Of a stretch of 64,000 bases of DNA, positions 20,643-64,000 are shown piece by piece. The first letter of the stretch is position 1; each line of letters opens with the position of its first letter. The stretch comes from a virus (taxonomy: Duplodnaviria > Heunggongvirae > Uroviricota > Caudoviricetes), in IMG/VR virus record IMGVR_UViG_2693429668_000006, one strand, 5' to 3'. The notes below the pieces were generated by a model, which did not search any database, had not been told where the DNA came from, and saw only the letters and a list, made by a program, of their open reading frames with translations. Both the position numbers and the translations under genes were made by a program.

Positions 20643-20685
20643 GTGCTTTCCTTTGTTTTTTAAACAAATTGTTTTCTAGTATTAG

Positions 20686-21607: not shown

Positions 21608-23314
21608 TTAATGATTGAGTATTTTATTAACACGCAGCTTATTAAGTGTTGATTTTGAAGCAACTTCCTCCAAAGCTTCTATTGCTTTATCAGTGATGCT
21701 CTTCTGTTCGTCTGTCGGGTGTTGCATACCCTTGAACTTGAGCATAGTCTCTTCTACTAAATTCAAAGCATCCTGATCACAGGATAATATCCAGTTTACG
21801 TAATCATCTTTAGAAAAACTGTTAAGAATATTCACATCACTATGGTTAAATCTTCCACCAGCTATTTTTTTTATAATTTTATCTAAGTTATAGTCATCTG
21901 GATTTCTATCTTTCAATTTTTTTTCAATTCTGAAACCTAATTCTTCATTTCCGAAGATCTCTACTCGCAAAGAATTAAATGTAGCATACGCATTGTCTTT
22001 ATTAACAAAAGCATCTGCATATGCCTCTATAATATTATTACAATCTCTATCCAATTTGATTAGGACATTTATTAAACCTACGAACTGTCCAATTGGTATA
22101 CGCAACAGACTATCGTTAATTACGCGCTCAATTTGAAAAATAAACTCTGATTCATTATCTTTAAAAGAGTTTCTAAAAACATCCCAAATTTTATAAACCT
22201 CACATAAAACCCTATTATCTCTATATTGTTCATTTTTTTCTTTTATTATATTTAGAATATTGCTTTCAGAAGACACATAACCGTTCTTAAGGTAAAAATC
22301 TATATCATCATCGAAAGCACTTTCTGCTCGTTCATAAATAATATCAAGGCTATTAACAAATGAATATACAGAGTTAACTTCTTCCTTTTCATCTTTATCA
22401 TCTAACATATAGTCGAATGCATGTATATTTTTGATTGACTCCTTAAATGAAGCATAATCAACGCTAGGAACACCAAAATAGTAAACCACTGAAAATAAGA
22501 CCAATCTATTAATAAAACTTTCTCTAACCTTATCCTCTGCTAACTTTAGCACATCTCTAAATATAACTAGAGATGATTTTATTTTATTTAATATTCTAAT
22601 GTTTTTGATGTTTAAATCATTTGCTAGGTTTTTTAACAAAAGAAAATCAGGGTCAGTCTCATAAAAAACTTTTCTTAAGTTTTTCTCAGGCGTGGGATCG
22701 TATTTTATTTCCACATCAATTATTTTTTCTCTATACTCTAAAAACTGTTGTTGTGCAGTTTCTTCATGTAAGTTATCTTCATTTAATATTAGAACAACCT
22801 TGCAATTTTTTCTTCTTGCCAACTCATCAATTACCCCCATAATCTCTTTAATTTCTAGCGCACTACCTTTTCGTTCAATATCATCAATGCAAACCAAATA
22901 ATTATTAACAAATTTATACTCAAGAGATGACAGCAGATTATCAGTTTTGAACCCAAAAAAATCGTTCTTTCCAAAATGTATTAAAAATTTTGACAAGGAG
23001 TTGTATTTCAACCATCCCCAAAACCCATTTCTATAACGAATCATAGTTCGATCCGTTTCAGATAAAATCAGTTCTTTATATTTCTTTTCATTAATTGGTG
23101 TGGCACAATGATAAAGAGCTTTTTTAATGTCTCCAATAGAATTTATTCCAAACAAAGAAACATATGAATATGCATTAAAATCTAATTTTTTAGAATGTTT
23201 AGTATAAAAGCTATTCCAATAATGCGTTTTACCTACTCCCCAATTTCCTTTTATGACAGCAACCCGATGATCTGAGTCCAAAAAATTTTTTAAAAATACT
23301 TCTATCGATTCCAT
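21608..23314 (-). CDS. KAP-family P-loop NTPase
   Basis: 568 aa; KAP-type Walker A VIKGNWGVGKTHYW and Walker B-like LVCIDDIERKG (compare GxWGxGKS and IDDLDR of KAP NTPases); gene body strongly AT-rich. Confidence 0.7.
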   Translation of the reverse strand: MESIEVFLKNFLDSDHRVAVIKGNWGVGKTHYWNSFYTKHSKKLDFNAYSYVSLFGINSIGDIKKALYHCATPINEKKYKELILSETDRTMIRYRNGFWGWLKYNSLSKFLIHFGKNDFFGFKTDNLLSSLEYKFVNNYLVCIDDIERKGSALEIKEIMGVIDELARRKNCKVVLILNEDNLHEETAQQQFLEYREKIIDVEIKYDPTPEKNLRKVFYETDPDFLLLKNLANDLNIKNIRILNKIKSSLVIFRDVLKLAEDKVRESFINRLVLFSVVYYFGVPSVDYASFKESIKNIHAFDYMLDDKDEKEEVNSVYSFVNSLDIIYERAESAFDDDIDFYLKNGYVSSESNILNIIKEKNEQYRDNRVLCEVYKIWDVFRNSFKDNESEFIFQIERVINDSLLRIPIGQFVGLINVLIKLDRDCNNIIEAYADAFVNKDNAYATFNSLRVEIFGNEELGFRIEKKLKDRNPDDYNLDKIIKKIAGGRFNHSDVNILNSFSKDDYVNWILSCDQDALNLVEETMLKFKGMQHPTDEQKSITDKAIEALEEVASKSTLNKLRVNKILNH

Positions 23315-23338
23315 TGGTGTCTATCCTTCAACTCATAT

Positions 23339-23361
23339 ATTGGGCGTAACAAACGCCCAAT
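23339..23361. terminator. hairpin ATTGGGCGT-aacaa-ACGCCCAAT between parG-like gene and KAP NTPase gene
   Basis: Perfect 9-bp stem located 5 nt downstream of the ParG-like stop. Confidence 0.45.
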
Positions 23362-23365
23362 ATAA

Positions 23366-23725
23366 TCACCCTTTCTTCATCAACTCGCGTTTAATTTCAT
23401 CGGTACGCATCGTGACATCGGCAGCTGTGATCGCCTCGTTAAGTTTCACGATGTCCTCGATTTCCTGCGGTGTCTTCTCCGCAAGATGGAAAATAGCAGC
23501 ACGAATCACGTCAGAACGAGTGAACTTCTCGAAGCGAGGGATGAACTTCATCATCTCCAGCAGTTCGAAGTATTCGTCCTCCAGTGACATTGTGCGGCTT
23601 TTAATTTTCTCTTTGCCACGAGTCGGGCGTCCCTGTGGTCTGACTGGTTGGCGCAAAGGAGTTGTGTTCTTAGCCGGTGCATCAGGCTCTTTGCGCTTTG
23701 CTAGGTCACCCATTTTCATGGACAT
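23366..23725 (-). CDS. parG: ParG-like centromere-binding protein (putative ribbon-helix-helix)
   Basis: 119 aa; basic flexible N-terminus then short helical C-terminus; stop/start coupled to ParA gene, as in ParF/ParG type Ib systems. Confidence 0.55.
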   Translation of the reverse strand: MSMKMGDLAKRKEPDAPAKNTTPLRQPVRPQGRPTRGKEKIKSRTMSLEDEYFELLEMMKFIPRFEKFTRSDVIRAAIFHLAEKTPQEIEDIVKLNEAITAADVTMRTDEIKRELMKKG

Positions 23726-24393
23726 TATTCTTCTTCCTCCAGACTCAACAGATAATCTACAAATTCTTCAAACTCGGCTTCCGCCTTTTTGTCGCGCTCG
23801 CTACCGGTCATTTCAAAGATAGAACGACCAGACTCTTCCGCATCATCATAGACGTTGCGGTTATATAGATTGACTGGCGCAGACTCGATGCCAAACGTCT
23901 CAACAATCTCTTTAGCCGCCAGAATGCGAGACACTTGTGATGGCAAAGCCGGGCACTGGTTCATGACCGCGCGGACCTTCACTTTATCGTTTACATTACG
24001 AACATTGTCGATAATAGGATCGATGTCACGCAGAGATTTCAAATCACGACGCTTAGGACGAAGCGGGATAATGATAACGTCGGCCATCAGCATCGCTTGT
24101 CGCTGAATTTCGGAGTCAAAGCCACCAGCATCTACCACTACAAACTCAGCTCTACCCTGAAGCGATTTTAGGTGCTTAATGATGTCATCCTGAACGTATG
24201 CAAAAGGAATCAGCTCAAGGTCTTCGTTCTGTCGACGGTCTTCACACCAGCTTGTTGTCGTGCGCTGAATATCTATATCAGTGATATAAACCTTCTTCTT
24301 CTTTTTGACTTTCAGGCAAACGGCAATTTGCTGGGCAACGGTGGATTTGCCAGGCCCGCCCTTTGTGCCGCCAACCACAAAGATCTTGGTCAT
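23725..24393 (-). CDS. parA: ParA/ParF-type partition ATPase (small type Ib)
   Basis: 222 aa; deviant Walker A GGTKGGPGKST at N-terminus. Confidence 0.8.
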   Translation of the reverse strand: MTKIFVVGGTKGGPGKSTVAQQIAVCLKVKKKKKVYITDIDIQRTTTSWCEDRRQNEDLELIPFAYVQDDIIKHLKSLQGRAEFVVVDAGGFDSEIQRQAMLMADVIIIPLRPKRRDLKSLRDIDPIIDNVRNVNDKVKVRAVMNQCPALPSQVSRILAAKEIVETFGIESAPVNLYNRNVYDDAEESGRSIFEMTGSERDKKAEAEFEEFVDYLLSLEEEE

Positions 24394-24672
24394 TGGAGAG
24401 TTCCCTTTGCGTCTATTATTATCGTCTGAAACAACTTGTTTTCTTATATGTGATATAGCCTAAATGCCTACGGCTACGGTGTAAAGGTTAAATGGTAGGT
24501 TGTGGTTAACAATTGGCAATCATAGCTTGTATTTGTCTGTTGAAAAAAGTAACAATGACCTCTATATTACAAGTACGGTGATATGCCGTACACAATTTGA
24601 TAATGCACACGTAATGGGCTATAGCCTTTTAAAGTAATTTTTGAGTCGAAAACTCAGTTTGAACAGAGGAGA

Positions 24673-24981
24673 TTGATGGCCTTCCTACATCACGGCCATC
24701 AGGAGGAATACATGTCAGCACTAAAAAAGCAGCGCATCGATTTGAGATTAACCGATGACGATAAAAGCATCATCGAGGAAGCTGCCGCAATGTCTAACCA
24801 GAGCATTACTCAGTTTATGGTTAGCAGTGCATCTGAACGTGCCGTGAAAGTTATAGAGCAACACCGTAGACTAGTTCTGAATGAAGAATCCTGGAATCTG
24901 GTTATGGACGCTATAAGCAATCCTCCGGCACCGAACGACAAGCTGAAACGAGCTGCTGATCGTCTGAAAAGCATGGAGTAG
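24673..24981 (+). CDS. tacA: antitoxin, TacA/DUF1778-like (RHH) partner of GNAT toxin
   Basis: 102 aa; RIDLRLTDDDKSIIEEAAAMSNQSITQFMVSSASERA matches the DUF1778 pattern; real start probably the internal ATG at 24712; 7-nt gap to toxin gene. Confidence 0.75.
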   Translation: MMAFLHHGHQEEYMSALKKQRIDLRLTDDDKSIIEEAAAMSNQSITQFMVSSASERAVKVIEQHRRLVLNEESWNLVMDAISNPPAPNDKLKRAADRLKSME

Positions 24982-24988
24982 TTTACTC

Positions 24989-25510
24989 GTGAGCAATACA
25001 ACGATAGAGATTTTCTCTGGAGAGAAAGATTATGATCTAAACGGTTTTGATTGCGGCGAAGAGTCACTAAACGCCTTTTTAGCCAACCACTTAAAAAGGC
25101 AGCATGAGGGAAAAATTCTTCGTGCTTATGTGCTTTGCACTCAAGAAGAAAGGCCAAAAGTGTTAGGATATTACACTTTGTCAGGTAGTTGTTTTGAAAA
25201 GGAGTCCTTACCTTCAAGAAGCAAACAAAAGAAGGTTCCTTATCGGAATGTTCCAAGTGTTACTTTGGGTAGGCTGGCTTTGGACAAGTCCCTTCAAGGT
25301 CAAGGATTTGGCTCAATGCTTGTAACACATGCAATGCGCGTTGTGTACAATGCATCTCTTGCTGTAGGCATTCATGGACTTTTCGTTGAGGCGTTAAATG
25401 ACAAAGCCAAGGCGTTTTATAAAAGTTTAGGCTTTATCCAGCTGGTTGGTAACAACGAGCGTTCTTTGTTCTATCCTACAAAATCTATCGAAAAATTGTT
25501 CGAAGAATAA
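24989..25510 (+). CDS. tacT: GNAT-family acetyltransferase toxin (TacT/AtaT-like)
   Basis: 173 aa; GNAT motif A region LQGQGFGSMLV; immediately follows the DUF1778 antitoxin. Confidence 0.8.
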   Translation: MSNTTIEIFSGEKDYDLNGFDCGEESLNAFLANHLKRQHEGKILRAYVLCTQEERPKVLGYYTLSGSCFEKESLPSRSKQKKVPYRNVPSVTLGRLALDKSLQGQGFGSMLVTHAMRVVYNASLAVGIHGLFVEALNDKAKAFYKSLGFIQLVGNNERSLFYPTKSIEKLFEE

Positions 25511-25542
25511 TGTGTTCCCCTCATTTGAGGGGAACTTCGACA

Positions 25543-25758
25543 TCACCAACCACAAACCCTCTCTCCCATCGTATTGTGAAAAAGGATTTGGCGTTCGGTT
25601 TCTTCAGTCATTACATCATTATTGCTGATATAGATAGGCTCAGCCCCATCGCAGAACAACACGCTGGCTGTTTGTGGTTTAATGACGCACCCACTTATCA
25701 TACAACTCACGATGAACGGCAGAAGCATCTTTCTGACGTATTTTACTGCTCGTCTCAT
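25543..25758 (-). CDS. candidate o-spanin-like outer-membrane lipoprotein overlapping the upstream gene
   Basis: 71 aa; lipobox CMISGC after hydrophobic leader; overlaps 3' end of the candidate i-spanin in another frame; not proline-rich, so tentative. Confidence 0.3.
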   Translation of the reverse strand: MRRAVKYVRKMLLPFIVSCMISGCVIKPQTASVLFCDGAEPIYISNNDVMTEETERQILFHNTMGERVCGW

Positions 25759-53542: not shown

Positions 53543-53655
53543 AGATCCCTCTAAAACACACAGAGCGCGTCCATGCGCTCTAAAACAACTTGTTTACTGC
53601 ATCTGCTAACCAACTTGTTTTCTGGGGTGTTTAATTAGGTCTGGCATGTCTTACG

Positions 53656-54013: not shown

Positions 54014-54904
54014 TTATGCCGGTAAAGCAATTTCTAACGGTTTATCCAAAGGTTGTTTGTCGAATGCCAGCAGTGGCAGCGTGTCAGGCAGTCGACGGCC
54101 AAAGTCAGGGTTTCGGTACACACCATACAACGGAGACGTAAAGCTCAGGTTGTGAATGTCCTTGAGCAGCTTCACAATGCTGGCCTCGTCCACCAGACTG
54201 TCGGCAATGTCCTGAATCGTCGTGCCACGATTCCGCCCAGCTTTTGCCAGGGAACTGTTCTTATGGTAGTCCGCCACCAAATCGCGCAGCGCACGGCGAC
54301 GACGAGACTCGCTCATAGCGAACAACTCTTTGACGATCGCCTCGTTATCACCCGGGTCGGAGCGGAAATGGCGCTGGAACACACGCAGTGCACTTTCATA
54401 GCTCTTCGGTCGCTCAGGGCGGATGAACTTAAACCCTGCTTTCATGGCGAAGGGATTGTATTTGCTCATCGAGGACTGGATCTCAATGATTGGCCGGTCA
54501 TGCATCCTGCTAACCAGGTTAATCATTCTATAAGAGACGCCTACGCCACGATACTGAGTATCCACAACTGAGCGACTGATCACCGCAAAGTTGTTATTCA
54601 CGTACCGACCCCAGTACTGGTTAGCCACGGTGGTATTAGTGGTTGGTTTCAACTTAGGAAACATGCGGTGGCGAGGTGCCAACAGTAGTTTCGGGTAAGC
54701 CATAACCACGACGCCCACCAGACGGTCATCAAGTTCGCAGCGATAGTAAGTTGGCGCGAAAGGTTTGCCGTCTGTTTTGTAGTGAAGCGACTTAAGAGCG
54801 TGCCAGTCCTCTACAGTTCCCTTTGTAACAGTCATTCGCTCCAGAAAGTCCAGATGACGCGGAAACTCTTCAGGGCGGTAGCGTTTAATGATGATGTCCG
54901 TCAT
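54014..54904 (-). CDS. GNAT-like acetyltransferase-fold protein with C-terminal extension
   Basis: 296 aa; GNAT motif A-like VVDTQYRGVGVSYRMINLV and terminal strand AMKAGFKFIR; ATGA-coupled to ABC ATPase gene. Confidence 0.5.
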   Translation of the reverse strand: MTDIIIKRYRPEEFPRHLDFLERMTVTKGTVEDWHALKSLHYKTDGKPFAPTYYRCELDDRLVGVVVMAYPKLLLAPRHRMFPKLKPTTNTTVANQYWGRYVNNNFAVISRSVVDTQYRGVGVSYRMINLVSRMHDRPIIEIQSSMSKYNPFAMKAGFKFIRPERPKSYESALRVFQRHFRSDPGDNEAIVKELFAMSESRRRRALRDLVADYHKNSSLAKAGRNRGTTIQDIADSLVDEASIVKLLKDIHNLSFTSPLYGVYRNPDFGRRLPDTLPLLAFDKQPLDKPLEIALPA

Positions 54905-55566
54905 GAATGGACCTCATCATGACTACCATTGTGATATTCCACCTTCACGCGTTCTTTGTAGTGCTTGGTGATCTGCATATCAGGGCGCAGCGCGTTCTTC
55001 AGGTCTTCGTGAGTCGTCGCCACCATTACCGTCGCACCAACCTTTCGAGCGGCACGCTGGAGGTTAGACGCCACAACCTGAGCGGTTACACGGTCGAGAA
55101 CAGCGCCGAACTCGTCAGCAGCCCATACTTTAGCGCCTGACTCAATCAGTTTGGCAATCTTGAGACGATATTTCTGGCCGTCTGACATTTCAGAAGGCTT
55201 GCGAACAAACAGATATGCATCGTTCAGACCAGCCATAGATAACAACCCAAGCGCATCACTGGTCGTTTTGCCCAACTGATCGATGACGTTAACCTCATTA
55301 TCGAAGGTAAAATCATCGATGGAGGCTACAGACAGCCCTTCATCCTTCATCTGTCGTTGCAACTCGCGCAGCACAACGGATTTGCCGGAACCGGATTGGC
55401 CGGTGATGTACACCACATCGCCCTGCTTCACTTCCAGCTCCAGATTGTCGTAAAGCGTCCACTCTTTTTCGTCCAGGCCAAGCCCGAACGACTCAGCGAT
55501 TTCCAACGTGCGCGTGGTTTTATTTACGCGTGTCTGAAACGATACGTTGATGATGTATTTGCTCAT
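54901..55566 (-). CDS. stand-alone ABC-type ATPase (nucleotide-binding domain only)
   Basis: 221 aa; Walker A GQSGSGKS, signature-like MSDGQKYRLKIA, Walker B VWAADEFGAVLD, H-loop TTHE; no permease gene adjacent. Confidence 0.75.
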   Translation of the reverse strand: MSKYIINVSFQTRVNKTTRTLEIAESFGLGLDEKEWTLYDNLELEVKQGDVVYITGQSGSGKSVVLRELQRQMKDEGLSVASIDDFTFDNEVNVIDQLGKTTSDALGLLSMAGLNDAYLFVRKPSEMSDGQKYRLKIAKLIESGAKVWAADEFGAVLDRVTAQVVASNLQRAARKVGATVMVATTHEDLKNALRPDMQITKHYKERVKVEYHNGSHDEVHS

Positions 55567-56264
55567 GCAGCCATCTCCCCGGAAGAGATCTTCTCCGCAT
55601 ATGCCACAAATGCGTCTACCCCGCTTTCTCCCGTCATTTCTTCCATATGGGCAAGCAAATCACCAACAACAATGGCAGAGCCAGCAGGGAGCGTTTTAAA
55701 GCCCAATACGTCGACAACACGTACTTCTTCCGCTGCAACTTCACGACTGATCTCGGTGTGTTCATCCTTCTGTCGTTTAGTTTCTTCGCCAAGATCGATA
55801 ACTAGCGAGTCGGTGTCCATTTCTTCTGTCATACTGCCAACGAGAACATTCAACTCACGCTCTTCAAAGCCGAAAACCTCGATATCGTCCAGAACAAGCG
55901 ACTCAAGCTCTTTCTGTAGCTTAATTGCATCGTAATCAATGCTGGCAAGTCGGTTATCTTCAAGGCGCTTCGCACGAACCTCGTCATCACTGAGATCATC
56001 GCGAACAATAACCGGTACGCGCTCAAGTCCAGCAAAAATTGCAGCCTCACGGCGGCCGTGGCCAGTAATAATTACGTCGTTCTTATCGACCGTAATTGGC
56101 TGGTCAAATCCGCGCTTTTTAATGGCTGCGGCTAGATCTCGGATCTGCTGTTCATCATGCTTTTTGGCATTCATCTCATAGGGAATAAGATCTGCCGGGT
56201 CGCGATATACGATTTCAAACTTTTTGGTCATTACATACGCTCCTTGTAGTAGTCGACCAGCCAC
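55563..56264 (-). CDS. ParB-like nuclease-domain protein (ParB/Srx fold)
   Basis: 233 aa; ParB N-domain motif IITGHGRREAA; acidic C-terminal half. Confidence 0.7.
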   Translation of the reverse strand: MAGRLLQGAYVMTKKFEIVYRDPADLIPYEMNAKKHDEQQIRDLAAAIKKRGFDQPITVDKNDVIITGHGRREAAIFAGLERVPVIVRDDLSDDEVRAKRLEDNRLASIDYDAIKLQKELESLVLDDIEVFGFEERELNVLVGSMTEEMDTDSLVIDLGEETKRQKDEHTEISREVAAEEVRVVDVLGFKTLPAGSAIVVGDLLAHMEEMTGESGVDAFVAYAEKISSGEMAA

Positions 56265-56929
56265 ACCAGAGCCTCACCAGCGTTCTCCATTTCATTACCG
56301 GTGTTAATAGCCTGCTCTTTGATGATGTTTTTTATGGTTTCTGCAACACGATCTGACGCATCGAAAGTTACTTTGAAGCGCATGGTCTGATGTTCCGCAC
56401 CCACACGTTCGGTTTTCTCTCGTTTGTCGGTATCGACAGGCTCATCACTACCACGAGACAACGCCTCCAGTGCTTCAAGGTCGATTGCCGCCTCTTTTGC
56501 TAAAACCATCGAGATTTCGTCGTCATACGGAGCGATTTCAGACAGTTGATAGTCAAGTTCTGACTGAATTTCTTCAATGAAGCGTTGCAATGCGATTTGG
56601 TCGTCTTCACCGTATCGCTCGTTGTCCACCAGTGACATCTGTTTAGCTACGACATCGCTAATTTTGCCCACAGAAAGCACCGGAACCGTTGAAATTCCTT
56701 GCTCAATAGCAGCACGCCAGCGATGTTCGCCGCCGAGGATTTCAAAAAATCCATCTTCAAGTTCACGAGCCAAAATTGGCTTAAAAAAGCCCAATTTTTC
56801 GATAGAACCTTTCAGTTTTTCAAAATTCTGCGCACCAACCGAATTGGTGTTCCAGGTATTCGGGCGAAGGTTGGCAACATCAACCTGCAAAATCGTGATT
56901 TTTACATCCATTTTATTGCTACAATCCAC
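56231..56929 (-). CDS. ParB-like nuclease-domain protein (second paralog)
   Basis: 232 aa; ParB N-domain motif ILGGEHRWRAA; overlaps downstream paralog by 34 nt. Confidence 0.7.
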   Translation of the reverse strand: MDCSNKMDVKITILQVDVANLRPNTWNTNSVGAQNFEKLKGSIEKLGFFKPILARELEDGFFEILGGEHRWRAAIEQGISTVPVLSVGKISDVVAKQMSLVDNERYGEDDQIALQRFIEEIQSELDYQLSEIAPYDDEISMVLAKEAAIDLEALEALSRGSDEPVDTDKREKTERVGAEHQTMRFKVTFDASDRVAETIKNIIKEQAINTGNEMENAGEALVWLVDYYKERM

Positions 56930-58860: not shown

Positions 58861-59325
58861 ATGAAGTCTCCCATACTGTTCACTTTCTGTTCTAAAACTA
58901 TCATGAAATACTCGCTTCTCCCTCTACTAACGTTACCAGTGTTGATGCTTGCCGCGTGCCAATCACACCCAATATCAATCCATGACGCCAAACCAGCACC
59001 GCAGGCCAAAGTGTTAAAGTATCAAAGCGCAGCGCCAGCTACGTTGGTGGTAATGAGAGACACAGGTTTTGTAGGAGCTGGATGTGATGCTTCCATTTTC
59101 ATCAACGGCGAAACTGTCGCAAAACTGGCTACAGGCGAAAAAGCGACTTTCCATTTAAATGCCGGAGAATTAATTGTGGGTGCATCTCTTGAAGGTGCAG
59201 GTTTATGTGCTCTAAACCCCGCTCGTCAAGAGCGAGAAACGACTCTGAAGAATGGAGACACAAAAGCGTTCAGGGTGTTTACCAGCAATTCTGGTGACAT
59301 CGACATTCTGCCAACAACTCTGTGA
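58861..59325 (+). CDS. lipoprotein (lipobox LAAC)
   Basis: Signal/lipobox LLPLLTLPVLMLAAC; start may be the internal ATG (MKYSLLP). Confidence 0.55.
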   Translation: MKSPILFTFCSKTIMKYSLLPLLTLPVLMLAACQSHPISIHDAKPAPQAKVLKYQSAAPATLVVMRDTGFVGAGCDASIFINGETVAKLATGEKATFHLNAGELIVGASLEGAGLCALNPARQERETTLKNGDTKAFRVFTSNSGDIDILPTTL

Positions 59326-59329
59326 TGAC

Positions 59330-59854
59330 ATGACAACCAAAGATATTACCTACGGTATCCAAGCTGAACTCTGGCCGCGAGATTACACTAACGTTGAAAA
59401 ACTACTGATGTTCTGGCGCAGAGAACAAATTCCTGTAAGGGTCACTCTCGAAGATGGCCAGGCGTTTTGCATGTACGTTTATGGCCTCATGCCATCTCGT
59501 AACAAAGTTGACCTTTGCCCAGCCCCTTTTGACAAAGAAAATCGTATAAGGCTCCCACTTGAACGCATTAGTACAATTGAATCAGGTGTGGTTGACAGTA
59601 TCGCTCACGATTTCAAAGGTCGACTAACAGTTCACCCTGATTATGTCGATAATCGGCCATCACGCCGCGATTTTTTTGCAATTTGCAACCAAGCCTACAA
59701 AGCAAACAAATCTATAAGGGTGTACATGGCGGATGGCCGTGAAATTGAGGGGGTGTCAGCAGGCGCAGATGCTTGTCAGGTTACACTACGTGTCGAGAAC
59801 GGTAGAAAAATAGTTGTTTTGTTCGATTGGGTTGAACGAATTTTGCCTTTTTGA
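59330..59854 (+). CDS. hypothetical protein (175 aa)
   Basis: ORF-track ORF 59252-59854 trimmed to ATG at 59330 (MTTKDITYG), which begins 5 nt after the upstream stop. Confidence 0.45.
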   Translation: MTTKDITYGIQAELWPRDYTNVEKLLMFWRREQIPVRVTLEDGQAFCMYVYGLMPSRNKVDLCPAPFDKENRIRLPLERISTIESGVVDSIAHDFKGRLTVHPDYVDNRPSRRDFFAICNQAYKANKSIRVYMADGREIEGVSAGADACQVTLRVENGRKIVVLFDWVERILPF

Positions 59855-62703: not shown

Positions 62704-62880
62704 GATTAATTCCTTATCGTAAATAACAAATTGTTTTCTTGTTGGTGTTAATTATCGTTGTACGAATAAGGCGTCAAAGTGGAAAGTTGCGGTAGCCGGA
62801 CGGGAACAGGTGGGTTTGTCGGTTGCCTGGAGGTAAGAGGTTGGTGTTTTTAGCCTGCGGGAAACAGGATGGTCATTTAA

Positions 62881-63195: not shown

Positions 63196-63350
63196 ATCCT
63201 CACTGCGTAAACATGTTGTTTTCTTGTTGGTGTAATTATCGCAGTGTAGATAAGGCATAAAAGAAGTTAATACAGGCTGAATACACAAGAAAGGTTCTGG
63301 AAGTTGATAGCCAGGTTTCAAACTAACCTTCGGTTATTAAAAGTCATTTA

Positions 63351-63899: not shown

Positions 63900-64000
63900 G
63901 ATGGTTTCCTTATTAAGTTGCTTCAGTGAAATCATTTTCACAAATCAGATAAGGCAGAAAACAAATTGTTATCGGGCTTAATAAAATGGCGCGGTTTACG

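What the first reader, a model, noticed from the sequence alone, without database searches (positions are those of the whole stretch)
23366..25510. Plasmid-maintenance cluster (ParA, ParG-like, TacA/TacT-like toxin-antitoxin) inside a phage genome
A small deviant-Walker-A ParA (23725-24393) coupled to a 119-aa ParG-like protein, and a divergently oriented DUF1778 antitoxin / GNAT toxin pair (24673-25510), are hallmarks of a low-copy plasmid. Together with the full virion module this indicates an extrachromosomal prophage. The 280-bp region between parA and the antitoxin (24394-24672) contains TACGG-type repeats (CTACGGCTACGGTG; GTACGGTGATATGCCGTAC) that could be a centromere or operator.
Basis: partly seen in the sequence, partly recalled or inferred. 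Interest (0 to 1): 0.5.

Follow-up and report, generated by a model that had tools for sequence, protein, structure and literature searches.

The report
Partition and toxin-antitoxin genes, known phage-plasmid

Summary
All four genes exist at the stated coordinates. The window is an SSU5-type phage-plasmid, 97-99% identical here to Escherichia phage Cyrano/pLF82 and to about 110-kb circular E. coli plasmids.

- **parA (23725-24393, -)** is a short ParF-like type Ib ATPase.
- **The 119-aa gene** overlaps the parA stop codon. It has a disordered, conserved N-terminus and sub-threshold ribbon-helix-helix (RHH) signals. It shows no detectable homology to ParG and none to RelE/ParE, which is how Cyrano annotates it.
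- **The toxin-antitoxin pair** belongs to the KacAT/AtaRT subgroup. The toxin is 70% identical to AtaT and the antitoxin 80% identical to KacA.
- **The inverted repeat GTACGG-N7-CCGTAC (24573-24591)** has the same arms and spacing as the crystallised kacAT operator. It lies just after the predicted -10, so it is the toxin-antitoxin operator, not a centromere.
- **The CTACGGCTACGG tandem** lies in the spacer of the putative parA promoter. Its second copy is not conserved.

The conserved par cassette is 23366-24500, flanked on both sides by variable cargo; the toxin-antitoxin pair is one such cargo. A 76-bp non-coding block (24425-24500) is as conserved as first and second codon positions. No centromere repeat array could be identified.

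Its palindrome AAACA-N3-TGTTT recurs before at least seven other operons, which suggests a shared regulator.

The element is already known, so interest is low.

The parts
23725..24393 (-). parA: short (222 aa) type Ib, ParF-like partition ATPase with deviant Walker A (K11...GK16ST) and no N-terminal DNA-binding domain
   Evidence: ORF. Pfam MipZ 7e-14, AAA_31, CbiA. PDB ParF 4dzz and TP228 ParA 5u1g at E=1.2e-10. PHROG 164 'ParA-like partition protein' 4e-51. NCBIfam ParA_partition 115.7 bits, below its 180-bit cutoff.
23366..23725 (-). 119-aa candidate centromere-binding/adaptor protein. It has a conserved N-terminal MGDLAKR motif, a variable disordered linker, a basic stretch, a probable RHH core (KSRTMSLEDEY...FTRSDVIRAAI) and two extra C-terminal helices. 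The start may instead be M3 (117 aa, as in RefSeq).
   Evidence: The start overlaps the parA stop. No Pfam hit. PHROG 5111, unknown function. Only 18 relatives among 1.84 billion representatives, always next to this kind of parA. The AF2 monomer has residues 1-25 at pLDDT below 50 and helices at 48-61, 70-82, 86-98 and 101-118. Sub-threshold RHH signals.
24425..24500 (-). Conserved 76-bp non-coding block upstream of parA. It holds the putative promoter, reading the - strand: -35 TTTACA at 24485-24480 and -10 TAGGCT at 24462-24457, 17-nt spacer. The spacer contains the CCGTAG(CCGTAG) element. This block is the best candidate for the par operator/centromere.
   Evidence: Pairwise identity is 0.94 across six lineages. 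Third codon positions of the adjacent genes score 0.58-0.68. Identity falls to 0.27 immediately beyond 24500. The hexamers were read from the sequence. The equivalent TTGACC-N17-TAACAT is present in distant L007.
24429..24441 (.). Palindrome AAACAACTTGTTT (core AAACA-N3-TGTTT) in the parA leader. It is one member of a dispersed family of sites before other operons.
   Evidence: 8 sites in the window at up to 1 mismatch against 0.40 expected. Positions relative to genes. Orthologous sites before parA and the helicase gene in other genera.
24468..24479 (.). It lies in the spacer of the putative parA promoter.
   Evidence: Only the first copy is conserved. The second is CTGCGG, CGACGG or CTGCTG in most relatives. 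One CCGTAG is kept in distant L007 and L014.
24540..24568 (+). Predicted sigma-70 promoter of the toxin-antitoxin operon (TTGAAA-17-TATATT)
   Evidence: It is the best promoter-like match in the region, 10 of 12. It is conserved in the 90%-identical allele L018.
24573..24591 (.). Toxin-antitoxin operator: inverted repeat GTACGG-TGATATG-CCGTAC, 5 nt downstream of the -10
   Evidence: The arms and the 7-bp spacing are identical to the crystallised kacAT operator AAATGTACGGTTATTAACCGTACATGA (PMC6698736; comparison). The arms are invariant and the spacer varies in L018 and in the separate Citrobacter cassette L009. There is a single occurrence in 64 kb.
24712..24981 (+). Antitoxin, KacA/AtaR-type DUF1778 RHH protein (89 aa). 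The open frame extends upstream to TTG 24673.
   Evidence: Pfam TacA1 8.6e-26. KacA 5zgn_A E=6.6e-42, 80% identity. The DNA-contacting residues R8, D10 and R12 are identical.
24989..25510 (+). Toxin, KacT/AtaT-type GNAT aminoacyl-tRNA acetyltransferase (173 aa, GTG start)
   Evidence: AtaT 6gts/6ajm E about 1e-79, 70% identity. KacT 5zgn_C 3.9e-75. Salmonella TacT 5fvj only 1.9e-11. Y144 in AFYKSLGF corresponds to KacT Y145. The QGQGFG acetyl-CoA motif is present (read).
25514..25535 (.). G+C-rich hairpin between the toxin stop and the convergent Rz/Rz1 lysis genes; a probable bidirectional terminator
   Evidence: Terminator-like site.

Best explanation
The window is part of an SSU5-type phage-plasmid of E. 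coli, a Cyrano/pLF82-like element. The locus consists of two independent maintenance modules placed back to back.

**1. A core type Ib partition cassette (23366-24500), found in every member of the group.** A ParF-like ParA ATPase is translationally coupled to a 119-aa adaptor protein.

- Inferred mechanism: the adaptor dimerises through an RHH core and binds DNA in the 76-bp conserved block upstream of parA. That binding would both repress the operon and mark the plasmid as cargo.
- Its conserved, disordered N-terminus (MGDLAKR) would stimulate ATP hydrolysis by nucleoid-bound ParA, so that plasmid copies move apart before division, as in ParF/ParG of TP228.
- Shown here: the gene order, the ParA family, the coupling, the disorder and conservation pattern, and the selective constraint on the 76-bp block.
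- Inferred: DNA binding, the RHH fold, stimulation of ParA, and the identity of the centromere.

**2. An accessory KacAT/AtaRT-type type II toxin-antitoxin cassette (about 24501-25545), carried by the E. coli/Shigella lineage only.** It sits in a slot that holds other cargo in relatives.

- By homology to KacT/AtaT, the GNAT toxin acetylates the amino group of charged tRNAs and blocks translation.
- The RHH antitoxin neutralises it, probably as a T-A2-A2-T heterohexamer that binds the GTACGG-N7-CCGTAC operator at the transcription start.
- On this low-copy replicon (about 5 copies per cell reported for Cyrano) the most likely role is post-segregational killing, the role phd-doc plays on P1. 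A role in defence against other phages is possible.
For: **Identity of the element**
- 97-99% identity to Cyrano and to circular plasmids of about 110 kb; 86% to SSU5 over par.
- Virion genes are in the window: large terminase, a 1524-aa tape-measure-sized ORF, a 1341-aa tail fibre, and holin, endolysin and Rz.
- Cyrano is published at about 5.5 copies per cell with virions. In lysogens the toxin, antitoxin and 119-aa gene are transcribed at 35, 60 and 9 times background (PMC9928086).

**Partition cassette**
- ParA matches ParF.
- parA and the 119-aa gene are adjacent in every relative examined, including Xenorhabdus/Morganella-type contigs at 25-40% identity.
- N-terminal and RHH-like motifs are conserved.
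- The 76-bp block scores 0.94 identity against 0.58-0.68 at third codon positions. Homology ends exactly at 23366 and 24500.

**Toxin-antitoxin cassette**
- PDB matches to AtaT, KacT, KacA and AtaR.
- The operator is identical in arms and spacing to the kacAT operator, and the base-contacting residues are the same.
- Operator arms are invariant while the spacer varies in two other alleles.
- The cassette occurs in 145 PLSDB plasmids, 140 of them Escherichia.
- Relatives carry other genes at the same site.
Against: - No iterated repeat array of the kind that marks type Ib centromeres (TP228 parH, the pSM19035 heptads) was found next to parA.
- hhalign against ParG gives probability 0.1.
- The most conserved palindrome in the parA leader is not specific to par.
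- Two ParB_N-domain proteins are encoded 30 kb away. They could in principle be the real ParA partners.
- Nothing here tests toxicity, plasmid stabilisation or the physical state of this particular element.
Confidence: 0.85

Rival explanations
1. The 119-aa protein is an omega-like global regulator (as in pSM19035). It would bind the dispersed AAACA-N3-TGTTT palindromes before parA, the helicase-primase operon, the cobT-like gene, the terminase operon and others. Those dispersed sites would together act as operators and as centromeres.
For: - The palindrome lies in the par leader and is strongly over-represented: 8 sites against 0.40 expected.
- It sits at a fixed position 18-41 nt before start codons.
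- It is conserved before parA and the helicase gene in several genera.
- The region around the HTH repressor gene holds a different palindrome, GGTAAGCACTTACC, and lacks this one.
- RHH proteins can bind closely spaced inverted half-sites (general knowledge).
Against: - The Xenorhabdus/Morganella/Photorhabdus relatives keep the same beta-strand residues (KSRT-S) but have no such palindrome before parA. No motif shared between their parA and other promoters was found.
- Sites before the terminase operon fit a lytic-cycle regulator better than a partition protein.
- The 119-aa gene is transcribed at 9 times background in Cyrano lysogens. That fits a locally autoregulated operon as well as a global one.
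Confidence: 0.12
2. The toxin-antitoxin pair is mainly an anti-phage (abortive infection) or inter-element competition module, not an addiction module. It would be one of several defence cargos carried in the slots that flank par.
For: - The same slot, and the slot on the other side of par, carry defence-like genes in relatives: HEPN/ApeA, Abi_2, a HEPN-domain protein, and here a KAP NTPase matching the PADLOC candidate PDC-S49.
- The cassette is accessory, not core.
Against: - PADLOC has no model that matches either protein.
- KacAT/AtaRT are described in the papers read here as translation-inhibiting, persistence-type modules.
- A low-copy replicon benefits directly from post-segregational killing.
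- The two roles are not exclusive.
Confidence: 0.2
3. The 119-aa protein is a RelE/ParE-type toxin, as annotated in the Cyrano record (CYRAN_29), and parA is an orphan.
For: Only the product name in OV696614 and the Cyrano paper.
Against: - No member of the family matches any RelE/ParE model, even at E up to 10.
- There is no PDB toxin match.
- The predicted structure is a disordered tail plus four helices with no beta-sheet core.
- The gene is translationally coupled to parA and always follows it.
Confidence: 0.02

Closest known systems
Escherichia phage Cyrano (pLF82, OV696614) and the SSU5_pHCM2 group of phage-plasmids (Salmonella phage SSU5, pHCM2)
   Same: The gene order is the same: primase, helicase, variable slot, 119-aa gene, parA, variable slot, Rz/endolysin/holin, tail fibre. 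The locus is 99% identical to Cyrano and 86% to SSU5 over par. The group is already described as plasmid prophages (PMC7969092, PMC9928086).
   Different: The window carries a KAP-family NTPase downstream of par, where Cyrano has a 267-aa hypothetical protein and SSU5 has three small ORFs. SSU5 has no toxin-antitoxin pair at this site.
ParF-ParG-parH of plasmid TP228 (type Ib partition)
   Same: A short ParA without a DNA-binding domain, detectably homologous to ParF. It is followed by a small protein with a flexible N-terminal tail and a probable RHH core. The regulatory DNA lies upstream of the ATPase gene.
   Different: The 119-aa protein shows no detectable homology to ParG. It is longer (119 against 76 aa) and has two extra C-terminal helices. 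No array of short repeats like parH was found.
KacAT of Klebsiella pneumoniae and AtaRT of E. coli O157:H7 (GNAT-RHH type II toxin-antitoxin systems)
   Same: The toxin is 70% identical to AtaT and the antitoxin 80% identical to KacA. The catalytic Tyr and the residues R8, D10 and R12 are kept. The operator has the same arms and spacing and sits at the transcription start.
   Different: It lies on a phage-plasmid next to the par operon rather than in the genomic setting of the studied kacAT and ataRT loci. The operator spacer differs (TGATATG against TTATTAA). There is a leader of about 120 nt between operator and start codon. Substrate tRNA specificity is unknown.
phd-doc plus parABS of phage-plasmid P1
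   Same: The same logic applies: a low-copy plasmid prophage that combines active partition with a type II toxin-antitoxin pair (P1 phd-doc is mentioned in PMC7969092).
   Different: The protein families are unrelated. P1 uses type Ia ParA/ParB-parS and a Fic-type toxin (general knowledge).

Membership tests
Type Ib (ParF-like) partition ATPase | Deviant Walker A motif KGGxxK[ST] with the signature lysine | tested here: met
   GGTKGGPGKST at residues 8-18 (translation).
Type Ib (ParF-like) partition ATPase | About 200-230 aa with no N-terminal DNA-binding domain, and sequence homology to ParF/ParA-MinD family members | tested here: met
   222 aa. ParF 4dzz and 5u1g at E=1.2e-10 over residues 9-200. 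Pfam MipZ, AAA_31 and CbiA. NCBIfam ParA_partition scores only 115.7 bits against a 180-bit cutoff, so it is a divergent member.
Type Ib (ParF-like) partition ATPase | A small centromere-binding partner encoded immediately downstream in the same operon | tested here: met
   The stop and start codons overlap (TAATG) at 23723-23727. The pairing is kept in all relatives examined.
Type Ib (ParF-like) partition ATPase | ATP-dependent nucleoid binding and partner-stimulated ATPase; stabilisation of a replicon | not testable with these tools
   Needs biochemistry and stability assays.
ParG family (TP228 ParG, RHH centromere-binding protein) | Detectable sequence homology to ParG | tested here: not met
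   hhalign of the family alignment A2 against ParG gives probability 0.1 and E=0.53. The ParG sequence was verified as 1p94_A. No Pfam hit, including ParG, for any of 13 members.
ParG family (TP228 ParG, RHH centromere-binding protein) | Ribbon-helix-helix DNA-binding core | tested here: inconclusive
ParG family (TP228 ParG, RHH centromere-binding protein) | Flexible N-terminal tail carrying the ATPase-stimulating residue(s) | tested here: inconclusive
   Residues 1-25 have pLDDT below 50. The MGDLAK(R/K) motif is invariant in close relatives and recognisable in distant ones (GGLGKK, FGDLTS, MAGLAKQ). Function was not tested.
ParG family (TP228 ParG, RHH centromere-binding protein) | Binds an array of short repeats upstream of the ATPase gene (parH-like centromere/operator) | tested here: not met
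   No iterated array exists in 24394-24500. There are only two-copy hexamers (CCGTAG, CATTTA, AAACAA). Binding itself is not testable here.
GNAT-RHH type II toxin-antitoxin, KacAT/AtaRT subgroup | GNAT toxin homologous to KacT/AtaT with the catalytic tyrosine and the acetyl-CoA motif | tested here: met
   AtaT E about 1e-79 with 70% identity; KacT 3.9e-75. Y144 aligns with KacT Y145, the residue changed in the Y145F variant used in PMC6698736. QGQGFG is at residues 102-107.
GNAT-RHH type II toxin-antitoxin, KacAT/AtaRT subgroup | DUF1778 RHH antitoxin encoded just upstream, with the DNA-contacting R8, D10 and R12 | tested here: met
   Pfam TacA1 8.6e-26. KacA 6.6e-42 with 80% identity. The sequence KKQRIDLRL is identical. 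There is a 7-nt gap to the toxin start.
GNAT-RHH type II toxin-antitoxin, KacAT/AtaRT subgroup | Palindromic operator spanning the transcription start site | tested here: met
   GTACGG-N7-CCGTAC lies at 24573-24591, 5 nt after the predicted -10. It has the same arms and spacing as the crystallised kacAT operator. The arms are conserved across alleles.
GNAT-RHH type II toxin-antitoxin, KacAT/AtaRT subgroup | Toxin arrests growth; antitoxin neutralises it; post-segregational killing | not testable with these tools
   Known for KacT and AtaT (PMC6698736, PMC7595197), not for this allele.
SSU5-type phage-plasmid | Phage structural, lysis and replication modules together with plasmid partition genes on a circular replicon of about 100-115 kb | tested here: met
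   25 kb of the window is collinear at 96-100% identity with circular plasmids of 109-115 kb. Terminase, tape-measure-sized ORF, tail fibre, lysis, helicase and primase genes are present.
SSU5-type phage-plasmid | Maintained extrachromosomally in lysogens and able to form virions | not testable with these tools
   Published for the 99%-identical Cyrano (5.5 copies per cell, virions seen). It cannot be shown for the source of this window.
RelE/ParE toxin (the Cyrano annotation of the 119-aa protein) | Homology to RelE/ParE superfamily toxins | tested here: not met
   No such Pfam, NCBIfam or PDB match at permissive thresholds.

The most novel reading that the evidence does not exclude
The 119-aa protein founds an uncharacterised, very narrow family of partition adaptors (18 representatives among 1.84 billion proteins). 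It may also act as an omega-like global regulator. By binding the AAACA-N3-TGTTT palindromes before the par, helicase-primase, cobT-like and terminase operons, it would tie plasmid segregation to control of phage replication and late genes. The dispersed operators would serve together as the centromere.
Probability: 0.1. Interest if true: 0.6.

Novelty: already known. Interest (0 to 1): 0.2.

Why it matters
SSU5-type phage-plasmids are common in clinical E. coli, Shigella, Salmonella and Klebsiella, and they can carry resistance genes. Knowing what keeps them in the cell is therefore useful. This analysis adds little that is new about the overall picture, because the element, its ParA and its KacT-type toxin are already annotated in the literature. 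It does add four things:

1. It corrects a published annotation: the gene after parA is not a RelE/ParE toxin.
2. It assigns the inverted repeat to the toxin-antitoxin operator by direct comparison with a crystallised operator.
3. It delimits the minimal par cassette to 1,135 bp between two cargo slots. The cargo in those slots includes toxin-antitoxin and defence-like genes, and in one plasmid an aac(6')-Ib-cr gene.
4. It points to a shared operator-like palindrome before several operons, whose binding protein is unknown.

Tried and rejected

**Sequence searches with the 119-aa protein.**
- phmmer and profile searches of PDB gave nothing significant.
- hhalign against ParG was negative.

**Search for a centromere repeat array.**
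- The repeat finder and k-mer enumeration in 23300-24720 gave only short two-copy matches consistent with chance, apart from the toxin-antitoxin operator and the palindrome.
- Third-codon-position conservation is mildly raised inside the 119-aa gene (23474-23576: 0.83-0.88 against about 0.6-0.7). The local repeats there (GAACTTC, TTCGAA) can be explained by the repeated Phe-Glu codons, so I did not call it a cis site.

**A motif shared between parA and other promoters in the Xenorhabdus/Morganella/Photorhabdus relatives.** Only A+T-rich noise turned up.

**RNA fold of the toxin-antitoxin leader (24576-24720).** The z-score was -0.30, so the overall fold is no more stable than shuffled sequences.

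**Literature on an SSU5/pHCM2 centromere or operator.** None was found in the held library.

**The idea that the TACGG motif links the par and toxin-antitoxin control regions.** Rejected. The par-side tandem is not conserved, and the par-side CTACGG is also present in relatives that lack the toxin-antitoxin cassette.

One search was an uninformative comparison made by mistake.
Full report
**1. What is in the sequence**

- parA is at 24393..23725 on the minus strand, 222 aa.
- A 119-aa ORF is at 23725..23366 on the same strand.
- A DUF1778 ORF ends at 24981 on the plus strand.
- A GNAT ORF is at 24989..25510 on the plus strand.

On the minus strand the parA stop and the next start overlap as TAATG (read), so the two genes are translationally coupled.

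The start that aligns residue for residue with KacA, and that RefSeq uses in identical plasmids, is ATG 24712, giving 89 aa. RefSeq also starts the 119-aa gene two codons later (117 aa). Both quoted repeats are there: CTACGGCTACGG at 24468-24479 and GTACGGTGATATGCCGTAC at 24573-24591.

**2. What the element is**

- The 2.3-kb region is 99.0% identical to Escherichia phage Cyrano and 97-99% identical to two 'Escherichia phage CMS-2020a' records. Only its par half is similar to Salmonella phage SSU5 (86%) and to Klebsiella SSU5-like phages (80%).
- In PLSDB it matches 712 plasmids. 143 of them cover the whole region. Nearly all are non-mobilizable and about 105-116 kb.
- A 25-kb piece of the window is collinear at 96-100% identity with such circular plasmids.
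- The window holds a large terminase, a 1524-aa tape-measure-sized ORF, a 1341-aa tail fibre, holin, endolysin and Rz, and DnaB-like helicase and primase genes.
- SSU5-like elements are an established phage-plasmid supergroup (PMC7969092).
- Cyrano (= pLF82) was shown to be present at about 5.5 copies per cell and to produce siphovirus particles. In lysogens its toxin, antitoxin and 119-aa genes are transcribed at 35, 60 and 9 times the local background (PMC9928086).

**3. The partition cassette**

*ParA.* It has the deviant Walker A motif (GGTKGGPGKST). It matches Pfam MipZ, AAA_31 and CbiA and PHROG 'ParA-like partition protein'. Its best solved relatives are ParF and the TP228 ParA (E=1.2e-10). 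At 222 aa with no N-terminal DNA-binding domain it is a type Ib ATPase. It scores below NCBIfam's ParA_partition cutoff, so it is divergent.

*The 119-aa protein.* It has no Pfam family and belongs to PHROG 5111, of unknown function.

- Its family is tiny. There were 25 hits in the 5.8-billion-protein collection. A profile search of 1.84 billion representatives found only 18.
- The relatives whose genomic context I retrieved all sit directly after a parA of this kind, between the lysis genes and the helicase gene of SSU5-like contigs. This includes distant ones at 25-40% identity.
- The alignments show three parts: an invariant N-terminal MGDLAK(R/K), a variable linker, and then a basic stretch followed by IKSRTMS-EDE(Y/F)...FTRSDVIRAAI.
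- AlphaFold (monomer, pLDDT 65) gives a disordered segment at residues 1-25 and four helices.

*Is it ParG-like?* By sequence, no. hhalign against ParG gives probability 0.1. I verified the ParG sequence as 1p94_A first.

The evidence for an RHH core is sub-threshold only, but it is consistent, because every signal falls on the same segment:

- Pfam RHH_1 at E=0.005 and 0.11 in two relatives, starting exactly at the predicted strand.
- NCBIfam aCcr1 at E=2.3e-4.
- PDB ORF56 of pRN1 at E=1.4.

That aCcr1 and ORF56 are RHH proteins is from my own knowledge. Fold searches were uninformative.

The Cyrano annotation 'RelE/ParE putative toxin' has no support at any threshold.

My reading is that this protein is the centromere-binding adaptor of a type Ib system. 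It would be analogous to ParG (flexible tail plus RHH) but is not a member of that family.

**4. The non-coding DNA upstream of parA**

I aligned twelve loci from Escherichia, Salmonella, Citrobacter, Enterobacter and Klebsiella. Homology runs from 23366 to 24500 and stops abruptly at both ends.

Mean pairwise identity over six lineages:

| Region | Identity |
|---|---|
| 24425-24500 (non-coding block) | 0.94 |
| First and second codon positions of the two genes | 0.91-0.96 |
| Third codon positions | 0.58-0.68 |
| 24394-24424 | 0.79 |
| Beyond 24500 | 0.27 |

The 76-bp block is therefore under strong constraint, and the whole par cassette is 1,135 bp.

Reading the minus strand, the block contains TTTACA-N17-TAGGCT. 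The distant Klebsiella locus L007 has TTGACC-N17-TAACAT at the equivalent place. I take this as the parA promoter, which is an inference.

The first copy is conserved, even in L007 and L014. The second is CTGCGG, CGACGG or CTGCTG in most relatives.

I found no repeat array of the parH or heptad type. The centromere is therefore not identified. The 76-bp block is the best candidate only because nothing else non-coding is conserved with the cassette.

**5. A dispersed palindrome**

The most conserved element of the leader is AAACAACTTGTTT (24429-24441). It is not specific to par.

- AAACAANTTGTTT occurs 8 times in the window at up to 1 mismatch, against 0.40 expected. No shuffle out of 100 reached that number.
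- The core AAACA-N3-TGTTT occurs 4 times exactly, against 0.14 expected.
- The sites lie 18-41 nt before the start codons of a cobT-like gene (start at 6089), the DnaB-like helicase (20642), parA (24393), a terS-like DNA-binding protein that precedes the large terminase (53542, two copies), and two small ORFs (62703 and about 63192). One more faces rightward at 63956.
- Most are preceded by a TAATTA -10-like hexamer.
- Orthologous sites stand before parA and before the helicase gene in Klebsiella, Kluyvera, Buttiauxella and other relatives. They are absent from the Xenorhabdus/Morganella/Photorhabdus clade.
- The region around the HTH repressor gene (6652-7038) carries a different palindrome, GGTAAGCACTTACC.

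This looks like the operator of a shared regulator. Which protein binds it is open. The omega-like possibility, that it is the 119-aa protein, is kept as a rival at low probability. The reason is that the distant clade keeps the same putative DNA-reading residues without the palindrome.

**6. The toxin-antitoxin cassette**

*Toxin.* It is 70% identical to AtaT (E about 1e-79) and nearly as close to KacT (3.9e-75). Salmonella TacT matches only at 1.9e-11. Y144 corresponds to KacT Y145, and the QGQGFG acetyl-CoA motif is present.

*Antitoxin.* It is 80% identical to KacA, with identical R8, D10 and R12. Those are the residues shown to read the operator bases.

*Operator.* The kacAT operator used for the crystal structure is AAATGTACGGTTATTAACCGTACATGA (PMC6698736). 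The window has ACAAGTACGGTGATATGCCGTACACAA. The arms are the same and so is the 7-bp spacing.

- It starts 5 nt after the best promoter-like site in the region, TTGAAA-17-TATATT at 24540-24568. The published kacAT operator likewise spans the transcription start.
- The pattern occurs once in 64 kb.
- In a 90%-identical allele (L018) and in a separate DUF1778/GNAT cassette of a Citrobacter phage-plasmid (L009), the arms are unchanged while the spacer differs.

The inverted repeat is therefore the toxin-antitoxin operator, not a partition site.

*Mechanism by homology.* The toxin acetylates aminoacyl-tRNAs. AtaT does this for Met-tRNAfMet and several elongator tRNAs (PMC7595197). The antitoxin-toxin heterohexamer represses the operon with conditional cooperativity (PMC6698736).

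**7. The cassette is accessory cargo**

At 90% identity or more it occurs in 145 PLSDB plasmids, 140 of them Escherichia. The par cassette occurs in 774.

At the same site relatives carry other cargo:

- SSU5 and several others have two unrelated ORFs.
- pJN2-26 has a 185-aa ORF.
- A Klebsiella element has a HEPN-domain protein.
- A metagenomic relative has ApeA-HEPN plus a Peptidase_S24 protein.
- AnCo3 has nothing.

The slot on the other side of par is also variable. The window has a KAP-family NTPase matching the PADLOC candidate PDC-S49. Cyrano has a 267-aa hypothetical protein. One relative has an Abi_2 protein.

Post-segregational killing is the most economical role on a replicon of about 5 copies. 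A defence role cannot be excluded, and the two are compatible.

**8. Verdict**

- The system is ordinary for its class and already known at the level of the finding: a published phage-plasmid with annotated ParA and KacT.
- What remains open is the biochemistry of the 119-aa adaptor, the location of the centromere, and the binder of the dispersed palindrome.

Noticed in passing
window 6109-6121, 20662-20674, 24429-24441, 53583-53595, 53608-53620, 62724-62736, 63209-63221, 63956-63971: A dispersed palindrome, AGAAAACAAnTTGTT (core AAACA-N3-TGTTT), occurs 8 times against 0.40 expected. It lies 18-41 nt before the start codons of the cobT-like, helicase, parA, terS-like and small unknown genes, usually after a TAATTA -10-like hexamer. 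Sites before parA and the helicase gene are conserved in other genera. It looks like the operator of a shared regulator whose identity is unknown.
   Followed up: partly
window 21608-23314 (-) and the two junctions at about 23365 and 24500: The par cassette is bracketed by two variable cargo slots. In this window the downstream slot holds a 568-aa KAP-family P-loop NTPase that matches the PADLOC candidate defence family PDC-S49. Relatives carry HEPN/ApeA, Abi_2, Peptidase_S24 or unknown genes in the two slots.
   Followed up: partly
L012 (MF554642.1 pTIC, 68376-69057) versus window 24819-25507: Plasmid pTIC ('uncultured bacterium clone AA-105') is 100% identical to the window on both sides. 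It has an aac(6')-Ib-cr gene in place of the 3' part of the antitoxin gene and the whole toxin gene, up to the toxin stop codon. The replacement is very precise. I could not tell whether it is natural or engineered.
   Followed up: partly
L001 4002-4361 (OV696614 CYRAN_29) = window 23366-23725: The published Cyrano record and paper name this gene 'RelE/ParE putative toxin' and count it among the prophage's toxins. No search supports that name. It is the gene coupled to parA.
   Followed up: yes
window 54901-56929 (-): Two tandem ParB N-terminal-domain proteins (55563-56264, 56231-56929) and an ABC-type ATPase (54901-55566) lie a little upstream of the terS-like/terminase operon, 30 kb from parA. 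Their role is unknown: packaging, a nuclease, or a second partition-like function.
   Followed up: no
window 59252-59854 (+): A 200-aa protein matches Pfam Flag1_repress (repressor of phase-1 flagellin, FljA-like) at E=2.5e-84. This is a possible lysogenic-conversion gene affecting host flagellin expression.
   Followed up: no
window 6608-6621, 6652-7038 (+), 7033-8136 (-): An HTH repressor gene (the Cyrano CYRAN_45 homologue) is preceded by a perfect palindrome, GGTAAGCACTTACC, and is followed by a convergent tyrosine recombinase gene annotated 'integrase'. In a plasmid prophage this recombinase may resolve multimers rather than integrate (my inference).
   Followed up: no
window 23474-23576: Third-codon-position identity inside the 119-aa gene rises to 0.83-0.88, against about 0.6-0.7 elsewhere in the operon. 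This could be an embedded cis site, or just codon constraints and recombination history.
   Followed up: partly
window 24592-24711: The toxin-antitoxin operon has a leader of about 120 nt between operator and start codon. It has local hairpins (GAGTCGAAAACTC at 24644-24656; TGATGGCC...GGCCATCA at 24675-24702, abutting the Shine-Dalgarno sequence) that are conserved in a 90% allele. The whole-leader fold is not more stable than shuffles (z = -0.30).
   Followed up: partly
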